Origin: Candidatus Thorarchaeota archaeon
GTDB lineage: Archaea > Asgardarchaeota > Thorarchaeia > Thorarchaeales > Thorarchaeaceae
Reading direction: 5' to 3'
Length of the DNA stretch: 64,000 bases
NCBI GenBank assembly: GCA_029855935.1
Contig: JAGSHN010000027.1
Span: forward strand, 1 to 64,000
Part shown: piece after piece, positions 44,439 through 64,000 of the stretch
Numbering within the stretch: position 1 is the stretch's first letter
How the letters are laid out: each line of letters starts with the position of its first letter
The notes under the pieces: generated by a model
The model's input: the letters and a program-made list of their open reading frames with translations, nothing else
What the model was told of the DNA's origin: nothing
The model's database searches: none
Position numbers and translations under genes: made by a program

Positions 44439-44521
44439 TGTGCTGGCACTTCGAATAAGTCTCTTCGCTGCTGGCACCACGCTTAAAACGCAAACGCCGC
44501 AACAGGGAACGGGTGAGCAGA

Positions 44522-45693: not shown

Positions 45694-48600
45694 TCAGTCG
45701 AGGTCAAGCCCAATACTGCGCAACAGTGCCTCAAGGTCGGCCTTTGAGAGTGTCTTTGCCTGTTCGAGTATGATCTCAATCTCATCGGGACCTATGCCCT
45801 TCTGCTCCAGTCTCCTGCGCAGTTCCTCAAGCTGCTCCGGATGCTCCGCCAGGGCCGGCTCACGGACCTCCTGTACCTTACCCTCGGCCTCGGCAATGGC
45901 CTCGGCTCGACGCTGCTCCTCCTGGGCGATGACCTCCCGGAGGAAGCCGACACGCTCGCTGGGCTTCATCCTCGCGAGGTCAGACCTGAAGGCCTCAATC
46001 TCCTCGTCACCAAGACCGGTCAGCTGAGCGAGGTACTCCAGTAGCTCCTCGACCTCTGGTACCACAGCCTTGATTGGATATCCATCAACATCCTCCGACT
46101 CCTTGGCGAGGTTGACAGGAGCCAGCTCTTCATTCGCCATCTCTAGTAGGACGTCCTGCCGCGACCTCACAGGTGGTGCCTTGGGCACCTTGCCGCGCTT
46201 CAGCGCGCCGAGCATTCTGTTGATGTAGCGGATCATCTTTGGCACGCTGAGAACCTTGACATAGAGTAGGAGCAGTAGCGCAAGGATGACCAGAGAGGAG
46301 CCACCGTAGACGGCCACGTTCTGAGCAAAGATCTGCGCCTCACTTGGGCTGGAGTAGATTGTGAATGCGACCTGCTGTGAGACGAAGTCGTCCTTTGAGA
46401 GAGTGACGACAAAGTAGAACGTGCCGGGGTCAGTCACCTGCACAATGAAGACGTACGTGCCGTTGCCAGTGTTGCGTGTGAAGTCGGGGTAGAAGGTGAG
46501 ATTTCCATCGCCACTAATGCCGACCTCATAGTCGGCGTCGTCAATGCCCACGTTGTGGTCGAGGTCCCAGTACTGGACCGTTATCTCAAGACTCGCTCCT
46601 GGGTAGGTCCGAATCTCCTGAGTGGACACGTAGTAGGTCGTCAGCACCTGACGTACCGTGATCTGCACGGTCTTCACCGGGATGAGATAGTAGGGCCCAG
46701 AGAACACAAGATCGACTCGGTAGGTGTCAATCGGCAGGTCTCCGCTCACTGAGAGGAGGTAGGAACCGTTCTCCATCTGGGTCAGAGGAGCAATACCGAT
46801 TCCCTGCCAGTGAGCCTCGGCCACAAGATCAGTGATGATCTCGTCTGTAAGGTCATTGCGCACCGTGAACGCCAGAGAGGCGGTCTCATTGATAGGCAGC
46901 GAGTACGCTCCGACGCCGAGTATAGTGGCCGGAGTCCTGAGCATCACAAGGTTTAGCTCGATTGTGCCAGTCGCATAGTTTGGCACAGTCATCGACACTG
47001 ATACGATGTAGGTACGTGGATTGGTCACATTGACGACCACTGTGATCAGGTACGTGCCATTGCCGAGGTCGGTCACAACAGCGGGGCCACCAGACCAGCT
47101 CGCCGTCACTGAGGCACCGACCACGGGCTGATCGTTGTGGACGTCCCAGTACAACGTCCTGAACTGCACGGTGTCGCCGTAGTAGCCGGACAGAGTCGGC
47201 GCAGTCGAGTTGAGTACCGTGGGGACCTCGAAGACGTTGAATGACACTGTGCGTCGTGCTGTGGCGTAGCCATCCCGGGCTGCAATGACCGACAGCTCAA
47301 GACTGCCAGTGCTGAGCCGACTGGTGTTCACGGTTGTCACATATGTGCCATCAGGCTGCTCGTGGAGCAGACCTGACAGACCGCCCACCACGTAGGTCAC
47401 GCTCGCGCCCGTGACTCGTGTGCCCACAAAGGTATCGTTGTATTCAACAACGAGCTGGACAATGTCACCATAGTATGAGTTGACGAGTATCGCGCCACCA
47501 TTCAGCGTGAGCGATGTCGGTGTAGGCAATACTATGATCGTCACAGGAGTGTCGAGGAAGTCGTAGTTTGGTGCCAGAGCATGTAGTGTCGCCTGATAGT
47601 CGCCAATGGCGAATCCTGTGGAGTTGATGTAGCCGACGTAGTACCCTGGCGTACCGTTCGCATACAGGTGCGCGACTTTGTCGCCCCACAGGAGCGTGAC
47701 ATTGGCATCCTCGATCGGTACATTCCGCGCTGTGGCATTCAGGTACACCCAGAACTCGTTGAGGCCCGACGGATAGACATCCACAACAGAGGACATCGCC
47801 ACTATCGATCCCGAAGCCTTTGTGACAACCAAGGTAAAGGTTGCAGAGCGGGGCTGATAGAACTGCTTGGACGCCACGACCACAGGCTCGTAAGTACCAT
47901 ACCTCTGAGTGGCGGTGTCTAGATGAAGGACGTAGGTGCCGTTGCCAAGGTCGACAAAGGGATAGACCGTACCGTTCCACTGCAGCTCCACCGTCATCTC
48001 TGGGACGGGCGTATTCGTCAACGCCTCGACGACATCGGCGCGAATATCAATGAACTCGCCCCACTCAGCATAGTATGTGGTCTTTGATAGAGTGAGATCG
48101 ACTGTCAGTGCTGCAGGCTGGATCATCACAGTCGCTGTTGCCTGGCGGTAGTCCGTCTTCGTCGCCCACACGGCAAAATAGTACTGCTGAGCCAGCAGAC
48201 CAGTCGTATTGATGGTCAGCTGATAGACGCCACCACCTATCTCCATAATCGTGACCGGAGTGCCATACAGTGACGTCCAGTTGGTCTCCACCGTGGCCCC
48301 AGTCACAACAGTGTCGTGGTCGGAGTCGTACAACGTGACATTGACCACATGTAGGGCTCCCACAGGTAGTGAGGCTGGCGATGGTGCCTCGGTGACCAGT
48401 GTAGTCTGGATGAGCCGGATCACTGCACGGATGTCATACGCCGAGCGCTCAGCATAGTATGGATAGCCCGGGCGACTCGCAGTGAGATTGAAGAAGATAG
48501 AGCCAGTACCGAGGAACTGCGAGGTGGGTATCTCAAGGAGGTAAGAACCGTCGCCGTTGTCGGTGATGTTGTAGATGCCCGGCGAGATATTGAGGAATGC

Positions 48601-51600: not shown

Positions 51601-53430
51601 CACAATATTCGAGGTATGTCTGACAGTAAACGGTCTCTTGAAGAAACCGACATTCTGAACAGAGCCGCTTGCCCCCTCGTCGGTGGCATAGGCCTGAACC
51701 ATCCAGTTGCCAGCCGGAGCTGTGGAGCCGTCCATGACAAATACCGAGGAGGTGGCATAGCCCAGAGCGTCCACTGTGGCGTTCTCGGTGTACCAAGTGC
51801 TGCCGTCGGGAGCGAATATCGTGATGTTGACAACCGAGTTTGTGTACTGTGAGCCAGCGTAGACCCGGACCTGGCTGGAGTTGCCCGCACGCAGCTCGAC
51901 AGTGCGCGACCACGTCGCGGTGTTCGGATCATACAACTTAAGGTCTGTGATCATATTGGGCGCAGTGCTCAGTATGCGCCAGTACCCGTACCGACCTGCC
52001 TCGGTCGTCACCTCGTATGCTGAGACGTTCAGGTACCCGTCACCGGGGTCGCCACCACTCCACCCACTGGTGAGATTCTGCGAACTCGTCAGAGGTCGAG
52101 ATACGTTGAACACGTCTCGCGTCGAGGGAATGGTCATATTGAAGAAGTACCTGTTGACGTAGCCCTCGGGGATGTCAGCGTAGAAGTAGTTGGCAAACTG
52201 CGCGTCGGTGCCATTCTGCACCGTAAACGTCTCACCGTAGGCCGTCGGCGAGATGTCGTAGACCGTCAGCGCGTTGTGCCTGCGGGCGAACATATTGATG
52301 TTGACGTCAAACTCCACGATGATGGGCCTGTTAGGTGTGGGATTGGTCGGTGTCGGCCACCACGAGAAGTTCATCGGAATGGGGTTGCCTGTCCACGGCA
52401 TCTGTGGGTCCTGAGTCAGAGAGCCGGTGCCAGTCGTGGTGCCATCGAGGACCGACTCTTCATTCATCTTCAGGTTTACATCTGACGGATTGGCGAGCGT
52501 CTTCACGTAAAGCTCGACATTGTCGAACTTGGCCCTTGGAGCGATGTCAGGATCGTACCCTACGTTCTGCTTGCTCCAGAGGCCCACCTCAATAGACACA
52601 GAGGGCAGGGAGAAGATGTCGCTGGGCACTGACACGAGGCCGGAATCAAACCATGTCTCCTCAGCCCCAATGTCATCGAAGACGAGCTGCCAGACCATAG
52701 AGCCCTCGACACGAGCGTACACTGCAAAGGAACCAGTCATTCCATAGTGGGTGTCATCCCGAGTGTCTGCCCAGTAGTCAAGCCGTAGACCCGCCCAGAC
52801 CACGGGGCCTCTGTCTACAGTCATTGTCTGTGTCGCGTAGGCATAGTCCCCAGCGTCATAACCGTACGGCGCGGACTGCGAGTTGCTGTTGATCTCGACA
52901 TCCACGCACGGTCCGCCACTGGCGTCGCCTGTGGAGTTGTATGACGCTGCAGGAGTGCTGGAGCCACCAGCACCAGTGGTAGCGTAGGTCCAGTCATTCT
53001 GGGTCGCAAAGTCCGGACTATGGACCCACGTCCTGTTCTCGGTGAGCTGAGTCACCTGCAGCTCCGCGTGGTACGCCTCCCAGTCCGGGCCCAGAGACAC
53101 GTTGACCGCAGAGCCGACCGTCGTGTTGTCGGTGTTGTAGCGCAGCGAGACCGCGTCTACAATGGTCGTGCTGTTGCCGTATTCGGCACCAACCCGCGGG
53201 GACGCTATGCCATTCCATTCCACCCAACCCTGGTCTGAGAGAACGAACCTGTGAAGCTCCTCGCCAGGTCCAACCTCGATAGTCTGTCCATTGCCAATGT
53301 CAACTACGCGGTTGGCCCCCTTCTGTCCGTCGGTGGCAGAGGACGGCATCTTGGCCATCTGACCGGCCGAGAGCACAGACACTGTCAGGAACACGAGCAA
53401 CAGGGCAAAGACCACTATCTTCCGCTTCAT
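45694..53430 (-). CDS. Giant single-pass Ig-like-repeat surface protein (~2578 aa) with conserved cytoplasmic domain
   Basis: Signal peptide, an ~600-aa N-domain, roughly 17-19 ~100-aa beta repeats (YxDxxxxxxIxGA..DxGxGxY), a TM and an ~185-aa charged helical tail. Confidence 0.9.
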   Translation of the reverse strand: MKRKIVVFALLLVFLTVSVLSAGQMAKMPSSATDGQKGANRVVDIGNGQTIEVGPGEELHRFVLSDQGWVEWNGIASPRVGAEYGNSTTIVDAVSLRYNTDNTTVGSAVNVSLGPDWEAYHAELQVTQLTENRTWVHSPDFATQNDWTYATTGAGGSSTPAASYNSTGDASGGPCVDVEINSNSQSAPYGYDAGDYAYATQTMTVDRGPVVWAGLRLDYWADTRDDTHYGMTGSFAVYARVEGSMVWQLVFDDIGAEETWFDSGLVSVPSDIFSLPSVSIEVGLWSKQNVGYDPDIAPRAKFDNVELYVKTLANPSDVNLKMNEESVLDGTTTGTGSLTQDPQMPWTGNPIPMNFSWWPTPTNPTPNRPIIVEFDVNINMFARRHNALTVYDISPTAYGETFTVQNGTDAQFANYFYADIPEGYVNRYFFNMTIPSTRDVFNVSRPLTSSQNLTSGWSGGDPGDGYLNVSAYEVTTEAGRYGYWRILSTAPNMITDLKLYDPNTATWSRTVELRAGNSSQVRVYAGSQYTNSVVNITIFAPDGSTWYTENATVDALGYATSSVFVMDGSTAPAGNWMVQAYATDEGASGSVQNVGFFKRPFTVRHTSNIVMSYLSDAVSTWVTNTTYENLVLVILKVNDTDSNVLVPGGTMSYTWAGGSGTFDDSGNGEYTKVIDTSTVPGKGQFTMDISWSRTAYDVSTAQIIFNVYYDATLESPDYPGISNAVGLDQTFRVNYTNVNGTGITGATITCNWTASYTVAEVGGGLYDVTLSTAGIPIGEYPILVQATAPFVVAKSLILYVDVREIYNTISYTANQLSIPVGESRSFRLTWTDTDSNVPVTGANNSIVCNWTSFHTTGEKNYTVIEVSPGEYEITLFTEDDDPVNSPGGFYTVQFDVSRPNYQNHTFIVEVQIRSHDTLFVLDKPVDQTPYTGTVIVLVEYRDLDLGVGIDNLTGYVRITVSSPTATLTWSVSSSTLGTGHYNITFSADQWGTIGWKDITIEVRWTGPVPTYYNGTIHTSVRILGTDTSIYLEQAPTAKYYLENFTFTVVYWDKVNSTRISNSTGDVFVYITPITAGHPVTQADFVVSELGGSPGTYEFRLNTSRFLITGTFEFRLNFTWRSGQAPLYENRSMTVSLVVLERLTYLDYVPIEPAPFGESATFYFSYVDSLSSERIANSSAISISLAEGWVSYSLSYDDSSRFFTMLIDTQSLGGVGTFTLHLNIGWSGEPYYRDLANQSFTLRVTLRNTQLTHGSFEPGQWGMNVTVVFTYTDLISGSSSGMTGTLTLNASLAGYYTVTYLGNGQYEVVLNTTGFPSDGVFTLNATIVYTGSNYEADASDVFGFAVSERATQLAYEIPDLTYYLENATFVVTYTDDNDGSPIDGATVVVSCSNSSVSPLVEGTDYWVVPLGNGQFRILVDSESLGSLGAFPVNVSLSWSGVPFYAPAHRVIYIRVGERPTQILITQTPGNTPFLENVTFQFKFSDFLTGQAISITKSNIALTFGPAQTPIGSGDYSLASLGTEYAISFNSTLLNSTHLVSNVPIYVTIDKTGQPPYYAARNATTYATTTERPTQILFPLVGTTPYGDNISIVFEYTDFISGAGISGASVSVAFLNISPGIYNITDNGDGSYLLEIPTSQFLGTGSIFFNLTASRPGYPYYAERSAYDIRAVIRLIQTTLVTEAPSPASLPVGALHVVNVTLYDSDHDTVVTGATVETNWTSLYGTPVTIMEIGGGVYQLTINTTGLLAQQYYFAVWATKTDYRQATATVMIQPAALTVDLTLSKTTYYAEWGEFIDIRADVVEALTNTPVPEMTVELQWNGTVYPFVDLGNGTYVLHLDTATQRYGTYEPVVVASKQFYQPRSATFTLVVTKASGSIVAMSSVVDVYPSGLNEFWVYLNATARNVPIEDANVTLLWGDKVAHLYANGTPGYYVGYINSTGFAIGDYQATLHALAPNYDFLDTPVTIIVLPTPTSLTLNGGAILVNSYYGDIVQLVVEYNDTFVGTRVTGASVTYVVGGLSGLLHEQPDGTYVTTVNTSRLSTGSLELSVIAARDGYATARRTVSFNVFEVPTVLNSTAPTLSGYYGDTVQFRTLYWDVHNDQPVVGASVTASWSGGPAVVTDLGNGTYLITVVVNVTNPRTYIVSVSMTVPNYATGTIELNLVMLRTPATILGVGAYSLPINETASLAFTVRNDLTDEIITDLVAEAHWQGIGIAPLTQMENGSYLLSVSGDLPIDTYRVDLVFSGPYYLIPVKTVQITVRQVLTTYYVSTQEIRTYPGASLEITVQYWDLDHNVGIDDADYEVGISGDGNLTFYPDFTRNTGNGTYVFIVQVTDPGTFYFVVTLSKDDFVSQQVAFTIYSSPSEAQIFAQNVAVYGGSSLVILALLLLLYVKVLSVPKMIRYINRMLGALKRGKVPKAPPVRSRQDVLLEMANEELAPVNLAKESEDVDGYPIKAVVPEVEELLEYLAQLTGLGDEEIEAFRSDLARMKPSERVGFLREVIAQEEQRRAEAIAEAEGKVQEVREPALAEHPEQLEELRRRLEQKGIGPDEIEIILEQAKTLSKADLEALLRSIGLDLD

Positions 53431-53435
53431 CTCTC

Positions 53436-56400
53436 TCACTCCTCCTCACCCTTCAGCTGCCGCAGCAGCGCGTCTATCTCGGCCTTGGTCAGGGCCTTCG
53501 CCTGTTCCACAATCAGATCTACCTCATCAGGCTCGATACCGAGGCCGAGTAGCTCTTGTCGAAGCTGCTCCAGCTCCTCCTCTGTCAGCGCCCGTGCCGC
53601 CTCAGGTGGCGCCGCCTCCTCGACTTCGGGCGCGGCTGCGACCTCCTTGGCCCGTCTCGCCCGCTCCTGCCTTATGACCTCACGTAGGAACCCAGCACGC
53701 TCGCTGGGTCTCATCTGGTCGAGGTCTGCACGGAGTGTGTCGATGTCAGACTCCGTGAGGCCGACGAGCTCAGCGAGCTCTGCCAAGAGAGCCTCAACAT
53801 CCAAGGCGGACACATCAACCGTCGACGGGGCCACGTCCTCATCCGTCTTCGTTATGTTGACGGGCTCCACCGACTCGTTCATCATATCAAGAATCATTGT
53901 TCTACGGTCACGCACAGGGGCGGCGGTGGGTACACCACCCTTTCGGAGCACACTCTCCATGTGGCGAATCTTGCGCACGAGAGGCGGCACCGAGAGGACC
54001 TTGATATAGAGCGCCGCAAGACCACTCAGCACAAGAATTGCAGCAGCGAGATAGCCGAAGGACGTGAACAGGGCCTGACGCTCGGGCGTCATCACTGTAT
54101 ACACCACGGCCGTGTACTCCGCCGCCTCGTGATCGCTGACGGACAGACGGATGTGAATCTCGTACGTGTTGAGTCCCGGACCAACAAACCCAAAGACATA
54201 GGTCCCGTTGCCCAGGTCGCGATTGAGGTCGGACACCAGTTCAAGTGTCGTCCCCTCGGTGCTGTTGACGGCACCGGGCAGCGGCCTGTCGTGATCAAGG
54301 TCCCAGTATGTCACTGTCACAGTGAACTCCTCACCCTCGTAGAATGTCGATGGATGACTTGCGACCCGCAGCTCGGTGTGGATGAGCCTTATTGTCATAC
54401 TGCTCCTGATCTCAGCGACAGAGTAGTTACCACGGGTCATGGTGACACGGATGGCGTAAGGTGTAGACCGGACCTCCAACCTCTCAATCCCCGTCGCCTC
54501 AGGACCGAAGGCATAGGAGCCGTTGCCCATTGGGACGAGGCTCACTGCTCCAAACTCCCAGATTGCTGCAGCAGTGCAGTTGGTCACGGGCCGGTCATTG
54601 AGTGTGTCCCACAGGGTGAACACGACAGTGTAGTCATCTCCCACTGGGAAGTCCACAGTGGTCGTGCCACGAATCTCCGTGGGTATCGGTCGCACCACCA
54701 ACCTGACTGAGCTAAACGCCGACTCGTACCTGTCACGAGAGAAGGCGAGGAATATGTCGTAGGCAAGAGGACTTGCTGGTTGAATCGTGGAGTTGATTGT
54801 CAGGACGTAAGTGCCGTTGTGGAGATCCACAAGCTGACCTTGTGTCAGACCTATCTCATAGATGGCTGTGGCATTGGTCACTCCCACATCATTGTGAGTG
54901 TCCCAGAACAGTAGGCGGAACGTAGCATTCCTGCCGTAGTACACCTCTACCTGACCACTACCAAGGACATCAATTCTCGTGGGAATACGTAGTACAGTGA
55001 CCACAAGCTGTGTGGTCGCGGGGGTGTGAGCAGCCTTGCTGGCCGTCACAGTCACGACCCAGCCTCTGACATCCAGATTGGCAGTCGGCACAATAGCGGT
55101 GTAATACCCAGGTTGTGTGGCAGGCTGCATCTGGCCCTCAATGTCTGCGATACGGTAGGTCACGTTTGCCTCAGTCACTGGCACCCCGAGATCGGTGTTG
55201 TTATAGTACACCGTGAGGTTGAACGTATCGCCATAGGTGACCGACAGACTTGTGATGCCCTCAAAGGCCAATAGTTCAGTTGATGCCTCTCTCACCTCAA
55301 TCGAGATTGACGAGCTGGCACTACCGTAGTTCGTCGATGTGGCTTGGAACGTCAGCTGATAGCTCCCGACAGGGACATCCGGTACCGACAGCAGGCCCTC
55401 GTACCGAGCAGTAGTGACGTTCCACACCAAGTAGCCACTCCCGCCAGCCCAGCTGAAGGATATTGATCCGACTGGTATCGACGAACCGTTCGCCGCCACG
55501 GTGTAGTAGGCCAGCAGCTCAGTGGTCTGGCCAAGAGTCAGTGTTGACTGACCTATGGACACCACAAGTGAGGCGGGCACCTTCCCTATCCTGATGTCGA
55601 TGTCGACATCACGGGTCTCGTAGTTGGTGAGCTCCGAATGAAACGTGAGTCTGTAGTCTCCAGCCGAGTAGAGTTTGGTCCTGATTGTAACTTGGTAGAG
55701 ACCACCACCGACCTCCGTCAGCACGTAGATGTCGCCAACCATCTTCAGTGTGACGGAGGCACCAGTCACGGGACTGGCATCTCGGAGATCGGACAGCGTG
55801 ACATTGAAGGTCACGAGGTCGCCGTAGATGATGCTCACAGGCGAGAATGTCACGTCGAGGTCCACAGGTACTGGACTGAGGGCGAAGTCCGCCGTCACTG
55901 TCTTGTTGTAGTGGAGATGACGGGAGGCATTGACATGAAACTCGTAGACGCCAGCAGTGAGCCCAGATGTGTCTATTGTCAAGTGATAGATTCCGTTCCC
56001 CACCTCCGCTATCGAGGAGCTGGTGCCATAGAGCGAGGTCCAGTCAGTGACCACAGTGGCACTCTCGATTCCGAGACCTGTCAGTACGTTCGTGAAGTTT
56101 ACATTGAGAATGACTGTGTCGCCGGAATAGTAGGTCACACCAGCTGGGACCGTCACCTCAAGGCTCGTGGACACAGGGTTCACAATGACAGAGAAGAAGA
56201 CATTCGTCTTGTTCTGATAGAACGGCGAGCCGGTGGAGGTGATGTTGAAGACGAAGTGATATCGTCCTGTCGAGCCAAAGGTGCTGGTGTTGACTCTTAT
56301 CTCATAGATGCCGCCACCAAGGTCCAGCACCCAGCTCTGAATGGGAGTCACATTCAAGCATTTGACGGTCACGGTGGCACCCGGAATCCCAGCGCTGGTG

Positions 56401-59400
56401 TCGTAGTCCGCAAACTCGATCAGTGCAGTGGCGTTGTACATGATGTCTGCGGGCGGCGTGGAGACCACTGCAACTTGCGAGGGGCGTCCCGTGATGGTCG
56501 CCTCCGTGGTGGTTGTGGAATTAGAATAGTACGGTGCAGTGTCACCCCAGTAGAACTGAACCTCGATGGGGTGACCCTCGACTAGAACAGAGGTTAGTAT
56601 CGTGGAGTTCAAGGAGATACGGTATCCGGTAGCAGTTAGGCTGAGGGCGTAGTCACCTGCGGAGAGCGGTATGTGAGATGCACCGTGAAACAGCAACAAG
56701 ACATCCTTGCTGAGAGTGACAGACGAACCGTCCAGACCGTCCGTCGCAGCCACAACAAAGGTGACATTGTTGAGAAACGGCGTGTTGAGAGGCGACCTCA
56801 CCACAGACAGGTGGAGGGGACGTCTTGATACCTCGATGGCCACAGAGAGCGTTCTCTCGAGGTAGTAGGGCTGTCCGGTGTAGTTCGCCACTATGTCGAT
56901 TGTGTATGAGCCGAAATTCCCAAGGGCCTGTGTCGAGATTCTCACACGATATCGTCCAGAACCGAGATAGTCAACCCAGTAGTTCACGCCCAACTGGAGC
57001 CCCGTTGCTGCAGTCGTACAGGAGGCATAGATCGATGCGCCAGCGATGCCGACATTCGTTGTGTCATCGAAGTAGAAGACTGTGACGTTGGCCTGCGTGA
57101 GATACGGCGCGGGACCCGGCAGCTCGCTTGTGAGCTGAGTCCTGCGTTGGACCACTGTCAGATAGAATGAGTCTGTGGCGTTCTCACAGTAGCGCGTCCC
57201 ACCATAGGTGATGCTGACATTGATGAGGTAGGTTCCCAGCTGACCGAAGGCACTCGTATTGAGAACCAGCGTGTATGTACCGTCAGCATTGTCCTCGACC
57301 GAGTAGTAGTCTTTCAACCAGGAGTCAAGCGTGAGATTGCCACCGTTCATTCCCGCGGTTGAGTAGTCATCGAGATCCCTATAGGTGAACAGCAGGGTGA
57401 GATTCGCGGCAAACTGAACGGACGTGTAGCTACCGTGCACAAGCTCTGTGTGGCGGTATCTCACGGTTATCGGTACCTCTACAGAGGTCCGGTTTTGGTA
57501 GTAAGGTGTGCCGACCCAAGTTATGTTGATGTGGAACACGCGAGTCCCTGGTGCCCAGGACGAGGTGTCTATCTCCAGATAGAACTCACCTGTTGCGTCG
57601 CCGCCGTAGTATAGTGTGTACGTCACAGCCTCAACAATCTCGATGTGCAGGCTTGAGGAGTTGAGAATCGGAGCGCCAGTGAGCGAGTCACGATACGTGA
57701 GGGTGAGATTGACCAGCTCGTCGTACGGTGTCACGGGCAACGGCGTCCACTCAACGGTCGTCTGTCTCTGTGTGGCACGCACTGTGACAATCAGAGTCTT
57801 GTTCTCGTACAACGGTAGAGCGCCCTTTGTCCAGTTGAACCATACCTCAAGGTCGCAGGATATTGGCCCACTGAGGAAGGCCGAGTCGAACTCGAACCAG
57901 TACTCACCCGGTTGATTGTCGGGGTCGACCTCGTAGATCATCATCTTTGACTGATCAAGGGACTGGCCGGGTGTGAGCACGGTCACAGTGATATGGACAT
58001 TTCCTGCATACGAACCCGTCGAGTTGACGATGCCAGTCTGTGCGCCGACATCGTAATAGACCAGCGAGAAGGTGATGTTCTCATCATACGGCGTCATAAC
58101 AGGGTTCACACCGATGAAGAGCTCGGCCGGGGTGGCTGTCACGACCACGGCGACCTCATCAAGATAGAGCGTCTCGTTGGTGTACTTCTCAGTGGGTCCT
58201 GTCCAGTTGGCGTGGATTGTCACGTTCTTTCCGCCAATCGAGCCCCACGAGTCAGCAGGGATGAGGACCAAGTACTCTCCCGGTGCGGAACCGTTGGTGA
58301 CGGTGTACGGCAACGAGGGGATGTCCGCGACTGCATAGATATAGACATAGTAACCTGTGGCGGAGCCGTTCTCTATCCCAACCTCCGCATCGACATCCCA
58401 GTACATCACTCTGATCTCAATCGTCCCCGTGTAGGGTGTGGGTTCAACCGGATTGACAAGATACAGCGATGTCAGATGCGTCCTCAGTTCGAGTTCAATA
58501 TAGAATGTATGGTTCTGAACACCGCCCTGCTCCACATCCACCTGCACCGTGTACAACCCGAGCGTGTCAGTGTCGACAGAGTAGATTGAGATGTTGTACT
58601 CGCCAGGAGTGGACGTCTCGACGACGGTGTAATGACCGTGTGAGCCAGTCCAGTTCAGCGTGAAGGCGCTCTCTGCACCTGATATTGGGAGGTTGTGGTC
58701 GGTGTCCCGATACGTGACCGTAAATGATGCGACGTAGCCAACCGGTAGAGAGAGATGACTTGTTGAGGGGGACGCCGACGTGAACAGCTCTCGAACCTGA
58801 ACAGACAGCTCAATCGTTCTGCGCTCCACAAAGTCCTTTGACGCCGTTATCTGGACCACGTACGTCGCCAGTGGGGCGGTACTCGTGTCGAGCGACAGTG
58901 TGTAGTAGCCCGGATTCCCTGCCTGTGGAGTGACCGTGTAGGTGCCGAGTGTCCAATTGCAGGTTATCGTGGCCCCAGTGATGCCGTTACTCCTCTGATC
59001 CTCGTAGTACAATGTGAGGTCAGCCGAATATCCCTTTGGAACATCGATGCCCGGCGCGTCGGGTGAGAGCAAGTCACTCAAGTAGATCACATTGATAGTA
59101 AAGGTGGCCGAAACGGAATCGTAGTATCCCTTTGTCCATTGCAGGGCCACGTCGTATTGCCCATTGGATGCCAAGAGCGATGTGTTCAACGCAATGTTGT
59201 ACTCGCCAGTACCGAGGTCATTCATAGTACCCGACCCGGCCGCCCAGCTGTATGCCATCACACCCTCTGGGAGAAGTTCGCCGTTGTCCGAGTCGTTGAC
59301 TCGCACCTGGAGAAGAACGACATCGCCATAGGTCACGTTGACACTCCACGTCGTGCGACCCTCAACAGGATATGTCACAGACATGACGGTACCGTGCTGG

Positions 59401-62120
59401 ATGCTGAAGCCTCGCCTGAAGTACCCAACATTATGGATCTCTCCTGCGGACGCGCTGTCGTTGACGAAGGCCTGGACCTCCCACGGGCCAACTGAGGCGT
59501 TGTAGGCTCCCAGAGTCACGGTGTCCGTCACCGCATATCCGTTCGAGTCAACCGTTGCAACCATTGAAGTCCACGGATTTCCGAGCGGGTCGTATATCGT
59601 GAAGCCAACAATGTCGTTGGCGTAGGCTGGGGACAGCGTGGCTCTGAACCGTGTGACATCATTGGCACGAAACGTCCTGGTGCGCACCCACGCCGAACCG
59701 TCCCAGACCTCAAGGTCGCTTATCATATTCGGTGACCAGCCCTTCAGATACCAGAAGCCGTTCTGAGCGGTGGTGGTCACCTCGAAGGCTGACACATTCA
59801 GAAGCCCATCTCCCGGGTCTCCATAGCTCCATCCATACGTCAGGTTCGTGTATCTGTCAGTGGGCTGCCCCACGTGATCGATGTCACGGTTGAGCGGAAT
59901 TGACACGTTGAAGAAGAACTTGGGCTCATAACCACCGGGAACAGCTGCGTAGTGGTTTGTTTCCCAGCGGACCGCCGTAGCATTCTCGACGTAGTAGCTG
60001 TCACCCGATGCGAAGTTGGCTGTGTTGTAGACCGTATCGAGGCCATACCTGCGAGCATATGCCGTTACACTCGCATCCATTGTAACCCGAACCTCAAGAT
60101 TCGGGACCGGAGGCAGTGGGACCGGGGTCCACGTGAAGTTCGCATAGGCCTTACCCTTGGTCCACGGCGTCGGTGGACGATACGTGACAACGCCCTCGCC
60201 ATACACCGGGGTCGAGCCCTGCATCACGTTCTGAACAGGAACTCCGTCCATCGTCAGGTTGACCTGCTCTGGAGTGGCCTTGGCCTTGATGTACAGGACT
60301 ATGTTGTCGAACCGACCCTCGGGCAAGATATCATTATATCGATACCACTCCTTTTGTGTGACCCTCAGGCCTATCATCAGGGGAACGTTCGGCAGCGACA
60401 GGGATGTGTAGTCCACCGGCACCAAGCCCGTGGAGTACCACGTGTTATCATCAGCGATGTAGTCGAACTTGGAACTCCAGAGATAGGAGCCGCCGTAGTC
60501 GGGATCGCCGACAGAGACGAAGAGCTCGAAGAAGCCGGTCATATACGATCCCCATCCGCGGCAGTCAGCATAGTAATCGAGCATGAGGCCGGCCCACGTG
60601 ACCTCCCCACGATTGATTGTCAGATCCTGTCGGACGTACGCCTTCTCACCCGGGCTATACCAGAAGCCGTACAGGCCAGAGACCGGGTCGGAGTGATAGT
60701 ATCCTCCAATCTGAGCGATGATCGCCCCGTCTCCAGCGGCGTGTCCATTCGGGGACCAGGTGATAGACGTGCGAGATGTGCCATCGCGTTCGACTGTATA
60801 CACGTAGCCACTGGCGTTCACGGCAACTCCATAGATGAATCTGAACTGGGCGTTTCCTGTGCCATCGCCACCCCAACGTCCCGAGTACGAACCAGTCTGT
60901 GTAAAGTACTGCACACGGTCGTTGCCCATGTCAGCCACGTAGATGGTACCATCAGAGGCAACATCAACGTCAGCAGGATCTCGGAAGGACCCTGCCGATC
61001 CACTACCAGCGAAGCTTCCGCCCGAACCGACAAGGCTGAGGTAGGTCCCCTGATAATTGAACCTCTGAACCCTGTTGTATGTGCTGTCGACAACAATTAC
61101 CTCATCATTGTTTGGATTGACGCCAATTCCCGTTGGGGCGTTGAACTGACCAGTACCAGTCCCCTGAGAGCCCCAAGAGCCTACAAAGTTGTAGTTAGAG
61201 TCAAAGTACTGGACACGGTCATTGCCCATGTCCGTGACATAGATGTATCCGTTGACGCTACCTACCGCCACGTCAACCGGACCGTGGAATTGACCGTTGC
61301 CCGTACCGGGACTGCCAAATTCTGCAATGAAACTACCAGAGGAGTCGAAGACTTGGATTCTGTCGTTACCGTGGTCCACAACATACACGTGGCCCGAGGA
61401 GTCCACATCGATGCCGAGCGGTCTGTCGAACTGACCCTGACCTGTGCCGAATGATCCCCACTGTGTGACGAAGTTTCCTGAGGCATCAAAGACCTGAATG
61501 CGATGGTTGTCAGTGTCCGCGACGTACACATACCCAGAGGAGTTGATTGATATGCCCCACGGATTGAGGAACTGTGAGGAGGAGGATCCGCGGGATCCCC
61601 ACTGACCCTGATAGTTGCCCGTAGAGGTGAAGAACTGAACACGGCTGTTGCCCTGAAAGCCGCTCACTGTCCGGTTTGTCCGGAAGGTCCAGTCGTCCTC
61701 GTTGGCGAACCCGTAGTTGACCACCCAGCTCCTGTTCTCCGCTATGTTGCTCACTCTCGACGTGACCTGATACGACTCCCAACCAGAGCCCACGGGGACT
61801 GTCCGCACGGCTGTACTTCTCGCCTGCGTGCTCGGGTCGTAGACCATACCAATGTCCGAGAAGACATCTGTCCGATTACCGTACTCGGCCACGGACAGAG
61901 GGTCCCCTACGCCTGTCACCGAGGTGGGCGCCGTTGAGATCACGTATTTGTAGAGGACCTCATCAGGACCTACCTCCACATACTGACCATCTCCGACCTC
62001 GACCATTCTTGGTCCGGCAGAACTCTGCTGGCTGGCAGGCGGGAGGGGCATGCTTGTCAGGACCGACAACACAAGGGGCACGAATACCAGCACCAGGCTC
62101 AGGCTCCGAACTCTCTTCAT
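53436..62120 (-). CDS. Giant single-pass Ig-like-repeat surface protein (~2894 aa) with NHL propeller and conserved cytoplasmic domain; paralog of the downstream gene
   Basis: Start MKRVRSL at 62120. Collinear with 45694..53430, plus six NHL repeats. Confidence 0.9.
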   Translation of the reverse strand: MKRVRSLSLVLVFVPLVLSVLTSMPLPPASQQSSAGPRMVEVGDGQYVEVGPDEVLYKYVISTAPTSVTGVGDPLSVAEYGNRTDVFSDIGMVYDPSTQARSTAVRTVPVGSGWESYQVTSRVSNIAENRSWVVNYGFANEDDWTFRTNRTVSGFQGNSRVQFFTSTGNYQGQWGSRGSSSSQFLNPWGISINSSGYVYVADTDNHRIQVFDASGNFVTQWGSFGTGQGQFDRPLGIDVDSSGHVYVVDHGNDRIQVFDSSGSFIAEFGSPGTGNGQFHGPVDVAVGSVNGYIYVTDMGNDRVQYFDSNYNFVGSWGSQGTGTGQFNAPTGIGVNPNNDEVIVVDSTYNRVQRFNYQGTYLSLVGSGGSFAGSGSAGSFRDPADVDVASDGTIYVADMGNDRVQYFTQTGSYSGRWGGDGTGNAQFRFIYGVAVNASGYVYTVERDGTSRTSITWSPNGHAAGDGAIIAQIGGYYHSDPVSGLYGFWYSPGEKAYVRQDLTINRGEVTWAGLMLDYYADCRGWGSYMTGFFELFVSVGDPDYGGSYLWSSKFDYIADDNTWYSTGLVPVDYTSLSLPNVPLMIGLRVTQKEWYRYNDILPEGRFDNIVLYIKAKATPEQVNLTMDGVPVQNVMQGSTPVYGEGVVTYRPPTPWTKGKAYANFTWTPVPLPPVPNLEVRVTMDASVTAYARRYGLDTVYNTANFASGDSYYVENATAVRWETNHYAAVPGGYEPKFFFNVSIPLNRDIDHVGQPTDRYTNLTYGWSYGDPGDGLLNVSAFEVTTTAQNGFWYLKGWSPNMISDLEVWDGSAWVRTRTFRANDVTRFRATLSPAYANDIVGFTIYDPLGNPWTSMVATVDSNGYAVTDTVTLGAYNASVGPWEVQAFVNDSASAGEIHNVGYFRRGFSIQHGTVMSVTYPVEGRTTWSVNVTYGDVVLLQVRVNDSDNGELLPEGVMAYSWAAGSGTMNDLGTGEYNIALNTSLLASNGQYDVALQWTKGYYDSVSATFTINVIYLSDLLSPDAPGIDVPKGYSADLTLYYEDQRSNGITGATITCNWTLGTYTVTPQAGNPGYYTLSLDTSTAPLATYVVQITASKDFVERRTIELSVQVRELFTSASPSTSHLSLPVGYVASFTVTYRDTDHNLPISGAESAFTLNWTGSHGHYTVVETSTPGEYNISIYSVDTDTLGLYTVQVDVEQGGVQNHTFYIELELRTHLTSLYLVNPVEPTPYTGTIEIRVMYWDVDAEVGIENGSATGYYVYIYAVADIPSLPYTVTNGSAPGEYLVLIPADSWGSIGGKNVTIHANWTGPTEKYTNETLYLDEVAVVVTATPAELFIGVNPVMTPYDENITFSLVYYDVGAQTGIVNSTGSYAGNVHITVTVLTPGQSLDQSKMMIYEVDPDNQPGEYWFEFDSAFLSGPISCDLEVWFNWTKGALPLYENKTLIVTVRATQRQTTVEWTPLPVTPYDELVNLTLTYRDSLTGAPILNSSSLHIEIVEAVTYTLYYGGDATGEFYLEIDTSSWAPGTRVFHINITWVGTPYYQNRTSVEVPITVRYRHTELVHGSYTSVQFAANLTLLFTYRDLDDYSTAGMNGGNLTLDSWLKDYYSVEDNADGTYTLVLNTSAFGQLGTYLINVSITYGGTRYCENATDSFYLTVVQRRTQLTSELPGPAPYLTQANVTVFYFDDTTNVGIAGASIYASCTTAATGLQLGVNYWVDYLGSGRYRVRISTQALGNFGSYTIDIVANYTGQPYYLERTLSVAIEVSRRPLHLSVVRSPLNTPFLNNVTFVVAATDGLDGSSVTLSKDVLLLFHGASHIPLSAGDYALSLTATGYRISLNSTILTSVLVEGHPIEVQFYWGDTAPYYSNSTTTTEATITGRPSQVAVVSTPPADIMYNATALIEFADYDTSAGIPGATVTVKCLNVTPIQSWVLDLGGGIYEIRVNTSTFGSTGRYHFVFNITSTGSPFYQNKTNVFFSVIVNPVSTSLEVTVPAGVTYYSGDTVILNVNFTNVLTGLGIESATVVTDWTSLYGTSSSIAEVGNGIYHLTIDTSGLTAGVYEFHVNASRHLHYNKTVTADFALSPVPVDLDVTFSPVSIIYGDLVTFNVTLSDLRDASPVTGASVTLKMVGDIYVLTEVGGGLYQVTIRTKLYSAGDYRLTFHSELTNYETRDVDIDIRIGKVPASLVVSIGQSTLTLGQTTELLAYYTVAANGSSIPVGSISFSWAGGSGYLVWNVTTARYEGLLSVPDVPVGSYQLTFQATSTNYGSASSSISIEVREASTELLAFEGITSLSVTYGDTFNLTVYYNNTDLGVPVTEANVTYRIADIEGQMQPATQPGYYTAIVPTANLDVRGWVVTVTASKAAHTPATTQLVVTVLRIPTRIDVLGSGQVEVYYGRNATFRLLFWDTHNDVGVTNATAIYEIGLTQGQLVDLHNGTYVLTINSTIQPASPLAYDIFLAFSRDRYESAFSSVRLVVRPIPTEIRGTTTVDFPVGDDYTVVFTLWDTLNDRPVTNCTAAAIWEFGAVSLVPMGNGSYAFGPEATGIERLEVRSTPYAIRVTMTRGNYSVAEIRSSMTIRLIHTELRVASHPSTFYEGEEFTVTVTYWDLDHDRPLPGAVNSTEGTTLELVSDLNRDLGNGTYVFGFVGPGLNTYEIHIRLSVSDHEAAEYTAVVYTVMTPERQALFTSFGYLAAAILVLSGLAALYIKVLSVPPLVRKIRHMESVLRKGGVPTAAPVRDRRTMILDMMNESVEPVNITKTDEDVAPSTVDVSALDVEALLAELAELVGLTESDIDTLRADLDQMRPSERAGFLREVIRQERARRAKEVAAAPEVEEAAPPEAARALTEEELEQLRQELLGLGIEPDEVDLIVEQAKALTKAEIDALLRQLKGEEE
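60790..61650 (-). repeat. Six NHL repeats (beta-propeller)
   Basis: GxGxGQFxxPxG(I/V)xVxxxGxVYVxDxxNxR(I/V)QxF units, six copies. Confidence 0.92.
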
Positions 62121-62578
62121 CTGACAACCTCCGGGTCGCGCACGCTCGACCTTCGGTATGCCCACAAGGGGCCTCCGCGGTTAGACAATCTTCAACCCGC
62201 CAATCCGCCCTAAAAAAGGTGCTGCGCGACAGATGGTTCACAAAACAGTCAGGATTGACAAAAAATCGAAACTCTGTGGTGGGCCTGGGAGCATTGCCCA
62301 GAGCAGTGAACGTAGCCGCAGCTTCAATCCACAGACCGGGGGCAGATTCTTCTCGCAATCATCGGCGTGGCGCCCAGTGCGCGACGGCTCCCAGCAACTA
62401 GTCAGGTCATTCGAATAATGTTAGTCTCGATTCCCGGACGGGGGGTTCGAAAAATACTGGGACGTAGAAACCGTCGTGGAGGGCCCACTGATGTATTCTG
62501 GCGATAGGCCGACGTATGGACTGGGCTCACGCCGAATCTCAGGTCAATCTTCTCAGACGCCCTGATGACGCCTAGAAG

Positions 62579-64000
62579 CTATGAGGATGGATGTCTACGT
62601 TTTCGCATCACAACAACCAAGACAGCAACGAGGGCAATCGTCCCGGCCGCAGCCGCCACTGGCAAGAGCGGCAGGGGTGAAGGACCCCCAGTTTCGGTGA
62701 CAGACAGGAGGGTCAGAGTGGTGCTGGCCGTGTTCAGGCCCCAGTCCTGAACGTATACGGCAAGAGTCACGAGGTGTGCGGTGGTCGGGACGGCAGGGAG
62801 CAGGCCCGTCCAGAGGGTACCATTGAACGAGAGATCAATCGTGGAGCCTGTCCCATCGATGTCAATCACTGCTTGCACACTGTAGACGCCTGAGAAGTCG
62901 TCATGGGTTGAAACATCAATCTCGGCGCCGTCGTAGAGGTTCGAGATGTTGACCACGATGTCCTCGATCACTGGCGGAGCGGTGTCCACTTTGGAGAAGT
63001 AGAGACGACGAATCCAATGCTTCGCCTTGAGCAACGTGCTGTAGGCGCCCTTCCAGTCCATCCGGTTGAGCTGGCCCAGCGCCTGCAACAGCAGTTCTTC
63101 CGCTCTGTCACGTGCAGTTGCTGTCTCTGGGCGCGGGTTATCACCGATACTGGCCACCTCCTCTGAGAGGTCGCTGGCCACACTCACGTACATCTGATCC
63201 GTGTAGGTGCCCTGTGCCCAGTTCTGCTCGAACGACGAGGTGCCGTTGTGAAATGAGTAATACCCCATCGGTCCATAGTAGAAGTCAGCCGCATAGTGGT
63301 GTACACTCCACGAGTGGCCGAAGCCAATCGCGTGCATGGTCTCGTGAAGCTGTATCGCCGAGACTCCCGCCTTGGGAGTCACGCCGTCAGGGAGATAGTA
63401 TCGCTCCCAAGACTTCCAGATCACAGTCTGACCACCCCCGCCAAGCCCGGTGAAAGTCCTGTTCCCATAGACCATTACCATCTTCTTCTTGATGAATACG
63501 ACCGAGAACACGTTGACATCATACAGCTCCGAGATGTAGTTGGGGCGCATGGTCTGATAGATTGCATTGAAGAGTCCCGCACCATCAACGTAGGTCGTAC
63601 CATCGTCAACCCAGGCGAATTGCCAGAAGAGATTCTTCCACGCGGGATAGTCGTCGATGTCAAGATATTCGACACTGACGTCCCAGTCGATGAACGGTAT
63701 CAGCTCATTCAGGTGAGCAAGCTGTAGGTCGGCACTGGTCACCCACTCGAGGCTCTCTACGCTCACGCCAGCGGCCACATCCATACAGAACACCAGGCAC
63801 TTGACCCGCCCAGATTCAGCATAGGAGGTTGGAATGTGCTGACCTGGAAAGAAGAGATAGGTGACTGGATCGTAGATGTATTCTTGGAGATACGAGTTGA
63901 GCACGATTCTATCGTCCTGCTGCGTCAGGTTGAGGGTCGAGACCAGCTCGTCCATATCATAGAAGGTGTACTGCGGATCGTCATCATATGGGGCCTCGCC
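62579..64000 (-). CDS. Membrane-anchored zinc metalloprotease (metzincin), 5' part outside the window
   Basis: HETMHAIGFGH (HExxHxxGxxH) plus a Met-turn (PMGY), an Ig-like domain, a TM and RKRR. The frame is open to 64000. Confidence 0.88.
   Translation of the reverse strand, partial: GEAPYDDDPQYTFYDMDELVSTLNLTQQDDRIVLNSYLQEYIYDPVTYLFFPGQHIPTSYAESGRVKCLVFCMDVAAGVSVESLEWVTSADLQLAHLNELIPFIDWDVSVEYLDIDDYPAWKNLFWQFAWVDDGTTYVDGAGLFNAIYQTMRPNYISELYDVNVFSVVFIKKKMVMVYGNRTFTGLGGGGQTVIWKSWERYYLPDGVTPKAGVSAIQLHETMHAIGFGHSWSVHHYAADFYYGPMGYYSFHNGTSSFEQNWAQGTYTDQMYVSVASDLSEEVASIGDNPRPETATARDRAEELLLQALGQLNRMDWKGAYSTLLKAKHWIRRLYFSKVDTAPPVIEDIVVNISNLYDGAEIDVSTHDDFSGVYSVQAVIDIDGTGSTIDLSFNGTLWTGLLPAVPTTAHLVTLAVYVQDWGLNTASTTLTLLSVTETGGPSPLPLLPVAAAAGTIALVAVLVVVMRKRRHPSS

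What the first reader, a model, noticed from the sequence alone, without database searches (positions are those of the whole stretch)
45694..62120. Tandem giant Ig-repeat receptors sharing a highly conserved ~185-aa cytoplasmic domain
Seen: two collinear paralogs 5 nt apart. Their ectodomain repeats are strongly diverged, but the post-TM tails (about 45694-46265 and 53436-54010) are conspicuously alike: Y(V/I)KVLSVP..(I/V)R.I..M...L..G.VP.A.PVR.R, VE.LL..LA.L.GL....I...R.DL..M(K/R)PSER.GFLREVI.QE..RRA and LE.LR..L...GI.PDE...I.EQAK.L(S/T)KA...ALLR. Known: ordinary archaeal surface proteins end in a few basic residues, while folded conserved tails typify eukaryotic adhesion receptors that couple to cytoskeleton or signalling. 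Inference: a cadherin/integrin-like transmembrane adhesion-signalling or cytoskeleton-anchoring heterodimer, with a rod potentially tens of nm long.
Basis: partly seen in the sequence, partly recalled or inferred. Interest (0 to 1): 0.82.

Follow-up and report, generated by a model that had tools for sequence, protein, structure and literature searches.

The report
Paired giant tailed surface proteins, Thorarchaeota
Two neighbouring genes of an uncultured Asgard (Thorarchaeota) archaeon encode paralogous, sugar-coated, ~2,600-2,900-residue surface rods that each end inside the cell in the same folded ~185-residue helical tail, which matches no described family and probably docks an unknown partner.

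Summary
B is 53436-62120 and A is 45694-53430, both on the minus strand, 5 nt apart. Each protein has a signal peptide, a carbohydrate-binding-module-like head, about 20 Ig-like domains, one TM helix and a ~184-aa all-helical tail. Charge bias and sequon counts place the tail in the cytoplasm.

The contrast between tail and ectodomain is overstated. A and B are collinear at 35% identity overall (100-column windows 20-46%), and their tails are 46% identical. Among orthologues the whole tail (0.58) is no better conserved than a third of equal-sized ectodomain windows. Only its two three-helix cores stand out (0.77 and 0.67).

The tail has no relative in Pfam, NCBIfam or PDB. A profile found 133 representatives among 1.84 billion proteins. 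It is in 80 of 85 genomes of the family, 2-5 copies each, always at the C-terminus of giant proteins. This genome has a third bearer. The B-A tandem recurs in at least 23 genomes, usually behind a conserved metzincin-motif membrane protein.

Best reading: lectin-headed surface fibres sharing a cytoplasmic docking module, partner unknown. Pairing of A with B and any cytoskeletal link are inferred, not shown. This scan has found the same family before in other genomes. I found no paper describing it.

The parts
53436..62120 (-). Gene B: 2,894-aa type-I membrane protein (ATG start at 62120; an upstream in-frame GTG at 62165 gives the 2,909-aa P0002 numbering)
   Evidence: ORF list and translation. 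Orthologues fall into two length classes, 2,552-2,617 aa and 2,870-2,923 aa.
60786..61673 (-). Six-bladed NHL beta-propeller, found only in B, inserted into the CBM-like head domain
   Evidence: Pfam NHL E 1.4e-26, DUF5128 and SGL. The A/B alignment shows B residues ~165-460 opposite a gap at A residues 154-158, which lies inside the A jelly-roll domain.
53994..54059 (-). B transmembrane helix (P0002 residues 2703-2724)
   Evidence: Kyte-Doolittle 19-mer score 2.25; the only hydrophobic segment besides the signal peptide.
53439..53993 (-). B cytoplasmic tail (185 aa)
   Evidence: 46% identical to the A tail, E 5e-37. B-type tails have 71% mean column identity across 31 orthologues. 9 K/R against 2 D/E in the 35 residues after the TM.
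45694..53430 (-). Gene A: 2,578-aa type-I membrane protein (ATG at 53430; P0001 numbering starts 3 codons upstream at a GTG)
   Evidence: An identical 2,578-aa database protein starts at MKRK. Orthologue lengths are 2,559-2,600 aa, with one of 2,629.
52495..53040 (-). A head: beta-jelly-roll resembling carbohydrate-binding modules (P0001 residues ~134-315)
   Evidence: AF2 model of residues 30-900, pLDDT 88. VIA-align: alginate-binding CBM 8zqf Z 12.8 (164 aligned, rmsd 4.0); hyaluronan-binding module Z 12.3; CBM16, CBM61, CBM4, CBM36 and MAM Z 10-12.
46315..52494 (-). A stalk: about 20 tandem Ig-like beta-sandwich domains carrying most of the protein's 67 N-glycosylation sequons (counted over the whole ectodomain)
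   Evidence: Foldseek: titin I65-I70 E 1.3e-13; Nitrosopumilus S-layer 8c8m 3e-13; complement C3 MG domains. VIA: titin Ig, filamin rod, SbsC Z ~10. Only residues 30-900 were modelled; the rest is inferred from repeat similarity. 67 sequons against 25 +/- 4 in shuffles.
46249..46314 (-). A transmembrane helix (P0001 residues ~2376-2397)
   Evidence: Hydropathy 2.42.
45697..46248 (-). A cytoplasmic tail (184 aa). It consists of a cationic amphipathic juxtamembrane helix, a further helix, module 2 (three helices, nt ~45877-46059), a variable acidic linker, and module 3 (three helices, nt ~45712-45840).
   Evidence: AF2 model pLDDT 78, all-alpha, 8 helices. The juxtamembrane 18-mer has hydrophobic moment 0.74, the maximum in the protein (99th percentile 0.44). 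Net charge is +7 in the first 36 residues and -19 in the rest. No sequons in the tail.
62579..64000 (-). Upstream neighbour, running off the window (whole gene is G000:C4:62579-64756, 725 aa). It has a signal peptide, an ectodomain with a conserved HExxHxxGxxH motif followed by PMGY, a C-terminal TM helix and a short basic tail.
   Evidence: Translation. The motif is conserved in 8 of 8 orthologues aligned. The gene lies directly upstream of B in at least 15 genomes of the family. No Pfam hit.

Best explanation
B and A are an ancient tandem pair of paralogous, heavily N-glycosylated type-I membrane proteins of Thorarchaeota. Each presents a lectin-like (CBM-fold) head on a fixed-length stalk of about 20 Ig-like domains; B adds an NHL propeller. 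If the stalk is extended it would reach roughly 80-100 nm. Each protein is held in the membrane by one C-terminal helix.

Inside the cell each carries a lineage-specific folded tail. The tail starts with a cationic amphipathic helix that probably lies on the inner leaflet, followed by two small acidic three-helix bundles. Every giant surface protein of this group in each genome has the same tail (3 in this genome, 2-5 in relatives), whatever its ectodomain. The tail is therefore most likely a common docking module, through which the surface fibres are tethered, clustered or positioned by a shared, still unknown cytoplasmic partner.

The two proteins probably act together as adhesion or surface-coat fibres.

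Shown: the architecture, the topology signals, the conservation, the distribution and the synteny. Inferred: glycan binding by the head, association of A with B, and docking by the tail.
For: Topology. Both proteins have signal peptides. After the TM there are 10 K/R against 1 D/E in A, and 9 against 2 in B. The ectodomains hold 67 and 66 sequons against ~25 +/- 4 expected, and the tails hold 0 and 2. Ectodomain lysine is 1.1%, against 6% in the tail.

Fold. The tail model has pLDDT 78 with 8 helices. The ectodomain model has pLDDT 88, with a CBM-like head (Z 12.8) and Ig tandems (Foldseek E 1e-13).

Conservation. Module 2 scores 0.77 mean pairwise identity, above every 56-aa ectodomain window. 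Module 3 scores 0.67. The linker scores only 0.27. dN is 0.15 in both modules, against 0.28-0.44 in the ectodomain, in a same-genus comparison. Twenty-five columns are invariant across the 19 aligned tails (A-type, the window's B tail and two DUF2341-type tails), including polar residues on the long helix of module 2.

A shared module on different ectodomains. The genome has a third bearer on contig 16. DUF2341 giants carry 4-5 copies of module 3. Bearers reach 5,543 aa, and the tail is at the C-terminus in nearly every non-fragmentary hit.

Distribution. 80 of 85 genomes of the family and 1 of 1 in the sister family have it. Divergent versions occur in four other Asgard families, and 0 of 135 and 0 of 31 genomes have it in two further families.

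The pair. The tail tree separates A, B and C clades (SH-aLRT 98-99). The tandem, with ~7.7 kb spacing, is listed in 23 genomes of more than 10 genera. There is a 5-nt gap with a purine-rich (GGAGG) run before A's ATG. Orthologue lengths are nearly constant.

Argument against an export role. The tail leaves the ribosome only after ~2,400 ectodomain residues, so it cannot start export (inference).
Against: No partner has been identified. Nothing links the tail to actin, ESCRT or GTPases. Taken as a whole, the tail is no better conserved than much of the ectodomain. The ectodomain itself is unusually conserved and of fixed length, which suits a structural coat as well as an adhesin. The CBM-like assignment rests on fold only (Z ~12, 12% identity), with no binding residues checked. 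The three-helix bundles are generic folds (best Z 7.5; Foldseek E > 0.6).
Confidence: 0.5

Rival explanations
1. Envelope or coat scaffold. A and B are the main structural surface-layer or sheath fibres of Thorarchaeota. The tail only stabilises and spaces the anchor in the membrane, through a lipid-binding amphipathic helix and an acidic domain that acts as a spacer or lateral organiser. There is no dedicated cytoplasmic partner and no signalling.
For: The ectodomain is strongly conserved (0.53 mean, up to 0.68) and its length is fixed, which is unlike variable-repeat adhesins. The pair is nearly universal and single-copy in the family. The ectodomain model matches the Ig-domain S-layer protein of Nitrosopumilus (8c8m, E 3e-13) and SbsC/Sap S-layer domains. 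Two-gene S-layers are known (SlaA/SlaB; established knowledge). Cultured Lokiarchaeia have no ordered S-layer but do show complex surface proteins (PMC9834061). The juxtamembrane helix is strongly amphipathic and cationic.
Against: A mere spacer would not keep invariant polar residues across three paralogue classes, nor multiply module 3 four to five times. The neighbouring membrane protein manages with a 7-9-residue basic tail. A lectin-like head and an NHL propeller suggest ligand binding.
Confidence: 0.28
2. Proteolysis-gated receptor. The adjacent metzincin-motif ectoprotease sheds the ectodomains. The TM-tail stub, or a released tail, then signals inside the cell, as with Notch, cadherins or anti-sigma factors.
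For: A membrane-anchored protein with a conserved HExxHxxGxxH...PMGY motif lies directly upstream of B in at least 15 genomes. The membrane-proximal stalk is the least conserved part of the protein (0.38-0.47). 14 of 19 tails give weak, sub-threshold matches to the RecX three-helix domain.
Against: The protease assignment rests on a motif alone, with no Pfam, PDB or NCBIfam match. It is separated from B by 458 nt that contain a T-rich promoter-like stretch, so co-transcription is not shown. The tail modules are strongly acidic (net -19), which argues against DNA binding. No intramembrane protease is linked to the locus.
Confidence: 0.08
3. Biogenesis handle. The tail recruits machinery needed to make or position giant glycoproteins, such as insertion, glycosylation, quality-control or turnover factors, and does not tether the finished fibres.
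For: The tail is shared specifically by the giant proteins of the genome. The ectodomains are heavily glycosylated.
Against: Its C-terminal position means it emerges after translocation of the ectodomain (inference). Other Asgard groups have giant surface proteins without this tail: 0 of 135 and 0 of 31 genomes in two families.
Confidence: 0.1

Closest known systems
Fibrillar or giant Ig-repeat adhesins of bacteria (head-stalk-anchor proteins such as SiiE, LapA, FdeC, invasin)
   Same: A distal binding-type head (here CBM-like, with an added NHL propeller in B) on a long stalk of tandem Ig-like domains. FdeC and filamin-type tandems appear among the structural matches.
   Different: Those are anchored by the outer membrane, T1SS retention or sortase, and have no cytoplasmic domain. 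Their repeat number varies between strains, whereas here the length is fixed. There is no sequence relationship.
Archaeal S-layer glycoproteins built of Ig-like domains with a C-terminal membrane anchor (Nitrosopumilus maritimus SLP, PDB 8c8m; Haloferax SLG)
   Same: Arrays of Ig-like domains, dense N-glycosylation and a single C-terminal anchor. 8c8m is the second-best Foldseek match (E 3e-13).
   Different: A and B are about twice as long, come as a paralogous pair, and carry a 184-aa folded cytoplasmic domain in place of a few basic residues or a PGF-CTERM signal. No lattice evidence exists.
Eukaryotic type-I adhesion receptors (classical cadherins and protocadherins; integrin alpha/beta)
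   Same: The overall logic: beta-sandwich repeat ectodomain, one TM helix, a basic juxtamembrane segment and a conserved cytoplasmic domain shared among paralogues; and a pair of co-expressed chains.
   Different: No cadherin, integrin or catenin-binding domains were detected. A and B are paralogues, unlike integrin alpha and beta. No cytoplasmic partner is known. The resemblance is one of architecture only.
DUF2341 (PF10102)-containing and other 3,000-5,500-aa Thorarchaeota proteins carrying the C-type version of the same tail
   Same: The same juxtamembrane motif, module 2 and module 3: 33% identity for the DUF2341 giants and 42% over the juxtamembrane part plus module 2 for this genome's third bearer.
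   Different: Different ectodomains, longer acidic linkers, and 1-5 copies of module 3.

Membership tests
Ig-like beta-sandwich tandem-repeat surface proteins | Tandem ~100-aa beta-sandwich domains | tested here: met
   AF2 model of A residues 30-900 (pLDDT 88) is all-beta. Foldseek: titin I65-I70 at 1.3e-13. VIA: titin, filamin, SbsC at Z ~10. The rest of the stalk is inferred from repeat similarity.
Carbohydrate-binding module-like (beta-jelly-roll) head | Jelly-roll fold similar to CBMs; ligand-binding residues | tested here: inconclusive
   Fold match Z 12.8 to 8zqf, with many CBM families at Z 10-12. Sequence identity is ~12%, there is no Pfam CBM hit, and binding residues were not examined.
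NHL repeat propeller (PF01436), B only | Six NHL blades | tested here: met
   Pfam NHL E 1.4e-26 (4 stretches), DUF5128 6-bladed propeller 1.6e-13; NCBIfam ScyF-like 9e-52, below its cutoff.
Classical cadherins | Cadherin repeats (PF00028) and the catenin-binding cytoplasmic domain (PF01049) | tested here: not met
   No such Pfam hits at E <= 0.1 on the whole proteins or at E <= 10 on the tails.
Integrins | FG-GAP propeller / beta-I domain and integrin cytoplasmic motifs | tested here: not met
   No Pfam hits. A and B are paralogues of each other.
Archaeosortase-type or short-tail C-terminal anchors (PGF-CTERM and similar) | Motif + TM + a few basic residues at the extreme C-terminus | tested here: not met
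   The TM is followed by 184-185 folded residues. No NCBIfam hit at E <= 0.01.
Known archaeal S-layer protein families | Sequence membership in a described S-layer family | tested here: not met
   No Pfam or NCBIfam S-layer family hit. PDB profile search of residues 30-900 found nothing at E <= 0.01. Fold-level likeness to 8c8m is generic Ig.
Any described family for the tail | Significant sequence or fold match | tested here: not met
   Pfam best is sub-threshold RecX_HTH1 (E 0.0011 against a 26-bit cutoff). NCBIfam none. PDB profile search found only a designed protein. Foldseek E >= 0.64. VIA best Z 7.5, within the generic helical range. Atlas gave nothing.
Metzincin metalloproteases (upstream neighbour) | HExxHxxGxxH zinc site plus a Met-turn; protease fold | tested here: inconclusive
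   The motif and a downstream PMGY are conserved in 8 of 8 orthologues. There is no Pfam or PDB match. The fold was not predicted.

The most novel reading that the evidence does not exclude
Thorarchaeota have a true transmembrane adhesion-receptor system. Lectin-headed A/B hetero-oligomeric rods bind a partner cell or matrix, and their shared cytoplasmic tail plugs them into the Asgard cytoskeleton or membrane-remodelling machinery, possibly regulated by the adjacent ectoprotease. This would be a prokaryotic counterpart of cadherin/integrin-type outside-in coupling in the closest relatives of eukaryotes.
Probability: 0.15. Interest if true: 0.88.

Novelty: new variant of a known kind. Interest (0 to 1): 0.62.

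Why it matters
Cultured Asgard archaea lack an ordered S-layer and show unidentified 'complex surface proteins' that are thought to mediate the cell-cell contacts relevant to eukaryogenesis (PMC9834061). This locus names concrete, nearly universal Thorarchaeota candidates for such structures. It also defines an undescribed cytoplasmic domain that can be used directly as bait to ask whether Asgard surface proteins are wired to the cell interior. Even if the proteins prove to be only a coat, they would be the first defined envelope components for this class.

Tried and rejected
- **Complex prediction of the A tail with the B tail**: no verdict. It counts neither for nor against binding.
Not supported.
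- **dN/dS**: synonymous sites are saturated even against the same-genus genome (pS ~0.8), so only dN could be compared.
- **Fold searches of the tail** (Foldseek PDB, VIA wide, ESM Atlas by shape and by features): only generic three-helix-bundle matches. These absences do not show that the fold is new.
- **Cytosolic proteins carrying module 3** (lead from e1-5383784): a module-3 HMM run on a six-frame translation of the whole genome found only the three tails. The next hits were an XPD helicase and one membrane protein, at E 0.02-0.03.
- **Small 'soluble' hits with module 2 or 3** (P0137, P0139, P0155, P0145, P0157): they sit on 0.7-2 kb contigs and look like fragments or chimeras, so I did not use them.
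- **Literature** (5 searches, 3 papers read): no description of these proteins or of the tail was found. This is a limited library, so it is not proof that none exists.
Full report
**What is there.** Two long ORFs lie on the minus strand, at 45694-53439 and 53436-62165. Read from their ATG codons, gene B is 53436-62120 (2,894 aa) and gene A is 45694-53430 (2,578 aa). B's TGA stop is followed by 5 nt and then A's ATG. A purine-rich GGTGAGGAGG run sits just upstream, which is the usual signature of translational coupling. The closest named database relatives are MAG proteins of Candidatus Thorarchaeota. The window is contig 4 of a 2.97-Mb genome that is 97% complete.

**Architecture and topology.** Each protein has exactly two hydrophobic segments: an N-terminal signal peptide and one helix about 185 residues before the C-terminus. 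The 35 residues after that helix hold 10 K/R against 1 D/E in A, and 9 against 2 in B. The ectodomains hold 67 and 66 N-x-S/T sequons, against 25-26 +/- 4 in shuffles, while the tails hold 0 and 2. Ectodomain composition (K 1%, T 11-12%, Y 6-7%) contrasts with the tail (E 15-16%, K+R 13-15%).

An AF2 model of A residues 30-900, built with 38 orthologues and paralogues, has pLDDT 88 and is all-beta.
- Model residues 105-286 form a jelly roll. Its best structural matches are carbohydrate-binding modules: 8zqf at Z 12.8, with hyaluronan-binding, CBM16, CBM61, CBM4, CBM36 and MAM domains at Z 10-12.
- The remainder matches tandem Ig-like domains: titin I65-I70 at Foldseek E 1.3e-13, the Nitrosopumilus S-layer protein 8c8m, complement MG domains, filamin and SbsC.
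- B carries a six-bladed NHL propeller (Pfam E 1.4e-26), inserted opposite A residues 154-158, which is inside this jelly roll.

At about 100 aa per domain, the 2,340-aa ectodomain would hold roughly 23 domains. An extended length of 80-100 nm is my inference from typical Ig-domain dimensions.

**The tail.** Nineteen tails were aligned (A1). The resulting AF2 model has pLDDT 78 and eight helices. In order along the tail:
- A juxtamembrane helix with hydrophobic moment 0.74, the highest in the whole protein (99th percentile 0.44). Net charge is +7 over the first 36 residues.
- A further helix.
- Module 2, with three helices, the last one long.
- A variable acidic linker that is poorly modelled.
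- Module 3, with three helices.

The distal part of the tail has net charge -19. Neither module has a significant relative:
- Pfam gives only sub-threshold RecX_HTH1 matches (14 of 19 members, best E 0.0011).
- NCBIfam gives nothing.
- A profile search of PDB sequences finds only a designed protein.
- Foldseek gives E >= 0.64.
- VIA gives a best Z of 7.5, which is in the generic range for helical bundles.
- The ESM Atlas gives nothing.

The suggestion that modules 2 and 3 are duplicates is not supported (hhalign probability 5.6%).

**How conserved is the tail?** A and B are collinear at 35% identity. In 100-column windows the ectodomain runs from 20 to 46% and the tail is 46-47%. The tail-only comparison gives 46% identity at E 5e-37.

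| Region (17 A-type orthologues) | Mean pairwise identity |
|---|---|
| Head and first half of ectodomain | 0.55-0.68 |
| Membrane-proximal stalk | 0.38-0.47 |
| Whole ectodomain | 0.53 |
| Whole tail | 0.58 |
| Module 2 | 0.77 |
| Module 3 | 0.67 |
| Linker | 0.27 |

The whole-tail value is matched or exceeded by 34% of equal-sized ectodomain windows. Module 2 is above every ectodomain window and module 3 is in the top 3%. B-type orthologues behave alike. Against the same-genus genome G313, synonymous sites are saturated. dN is 0.26 for the tail, 0.30 for the head, 0.28 for the middle, 0.44 for the stalk and 0.15 for each module.

The striking facts are two: the whole protein is under strong constraint, and the two helical cores are its most constrained parts. 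Against the third, more distant paralogue the tail is clearly better kept (42% against 26-29%).

**Distribution.** A profile of the tail, searched against 1.84 billion representative proteins, found only 133 hits. Nearly all non-fragmentary ones carry it at the extreme C-terminus of proteins of up to 5,543 aa. Named members are from Thorarchaeota, with divergent forms in Odinarchaeota and other Asgard MAGs.

Across 400 genomes of the phylum:
- 80 of 85 genomes of the family have the tail, with 2-5 copies each.
- 1 of 1 genome in the sister family has it.
- Four other families give weak hits (1e-6 to 1e-11).
- Two large families have none (0 of 135 and 0 of 31).

The weak hits are also C-terminal tails of long TM proteins. 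They share the juxtamembrane motif and have different helical-hairpin repeats downstream.

This genome has three bearers: A, B and a protein of at least 2,889 aa at a contig end on C16. A module-3 HMM run over the six-frame genome finds nothing else. A maximum-likelihood tree of 114 tails resolves A, B and C clades (SH-aLRT 98-99). Each of the A and B clades spans many genomes, so the duplication is old. DUF2341 giants carry the C-type tail with 4-5 copies of module 3.

**Synteny.** In the listing, A-type and B-type tails lie 7.6-7.9 kb apart on the same contig in 23 genomes from more than ten genera, including the sister family (checked directly in L007).

Directly upstream of B lies a 725-aa protein that runs off the window. 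It has a signal peptide, an ectodomain with HExxHxxGxxH followed by PMGY, a TM helix and only a 7-9-residue basic tail. Its orthologues sit immediately upstream of B in at least 15 genomes, and the motif is conserved in all eight that I aligned. It has no Pfam or PDB relative, so 'metzincin-like protease' rests on the motif alone.

**Interpretation.** What has been shown is the anatomy, the topology signals, the conservation pattern, the restricted distribution, the sharing of the tail among different giant ectodomains, and the conserved locus.

From this I infer, at about 0.5 confidence, that the tail is a common cytoplasmic docking module. The reasons are as follows:
- Polar residues stay invariant across the aligned A-, B- and DUF2341-type tails.
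- Module 3 is multiplied in some bearers.
- The linker is free to vary.
- The tail is made last, so it cannot direct export.

That A and B act together follows only from their coupling, collinearity, fixed and similar lengths, and joint retention. A structural coat role with a purely membrane-organising tail is nearly as compatible (0.28). A protease-gated receptor (0.08) and a biogenesis handle (0.10) remain possible. Cadherin or integrin membership is excluded at the sequence-family level, so the resemblance is architectural only.

**Context and novelty.** Cultured Lokiarchaeia lack an ordered S-layer and show unidentified complex surface proteins (PMC9834061). I found no paper describing these Thorarchaeota proteins or the tail. 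Earlier reports of this scan have described the same family on other genomes, with similar conclusions. I reached my conclusions from my own tests. On two points I differ: the internal duplication is not supported, and no cytosolic protein with the module was found in this genome.

**Limits.** Only one third of one ectodomain was modelled. The complex prediction gave no verdict. No partner was identified.

Noticed in passing
window 62579-64000 (-), continuing to G000:C4:64756 (L005:580-2757): A 725-aa membrane-anchored ectoprotein with a conserved HExxHxxGxxH...PMGY (metzincin-type) motif and a short basic tail. It lies directly upstream of B in at least 15 genomes of the family and has no Pfam or PDB relative. 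It could be a processing or shedding enzyme for the giants.
   Followed up: partly
window 60786-61673 (-): The NHL propeller of B is inserted into a loop of the CBM-like head. B-type orthologues come in two length classes, ~2,600 aa without and ~2,890 aa with the propeller. One MAG (locus-tag prefix EU527) has both forms with nearly identical tails.
   Followed up: partly
G000:C16:131856-140546 (L004:7854-16523, -): A third tail-bearing giant protein of this genome, at least 2,889 aa and cut by the contig end. It has the C-type tail: a long acidic linker, plus a weaker extra match (iE 4e-8) to the module-3 profile in the segment after module 2. Its stalk is built of the same repeat type (26-29% identity to A).
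   Followed up: partly
P0126 (341 aa, 2.1-kb JGI contig) against window 25336-28599 (-): One metagenomic protein joins the post-NTPase domain of the window's STAND/NACHT-like protein (37% identity to its residues 389-573) to a tail-like juxtamembrane-plus-module-2 segment without a TM helix. It may be a real domain shuffle or an assembly chimera. STAND genes lie within 3-20 kb of the B-A cluster in several genomes.
   Followed up: partly
L008-L014 (genomes G107, G300, G006, G299, G304): Other Asgard families have long TM proteins whose tails share the juxtamembrane motif (xVPxxVRKxxxMxxxIxxGKxP). Downstream they carry repeated L-x-G-L-S/T-x-x-E...E-R helical hairpins. This suggests a wider Asgard tail superfamily.
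   Followed up: partly
G000:C27:28315-29103 (-): A 263-aa multi-pass membrane protein whose C-terminus weakly resembles the first two helices of module 3 (E 0.03), followed by a helix-hairpin-helix-like segment.
   Followed up: no
window 45694-62120 against G313:C4 (L006): Synonymous sites are saturated (pS ~0.8) between two genomes placed in the same genus, while the giant proteins stay 52-70% identical, depending on region. 'Genus' here spans deep divergence.
   Followed up: no
window 44513-45541 (+): A class-I Tyr/Trp-tRNA synthetase gene (PF00579, E 7e-48) converges on the 3' end of gene A. A hairpin followed by a T-run on the + strand lies at 45730-45748, inside the 3' end of A.
   Followed up: no
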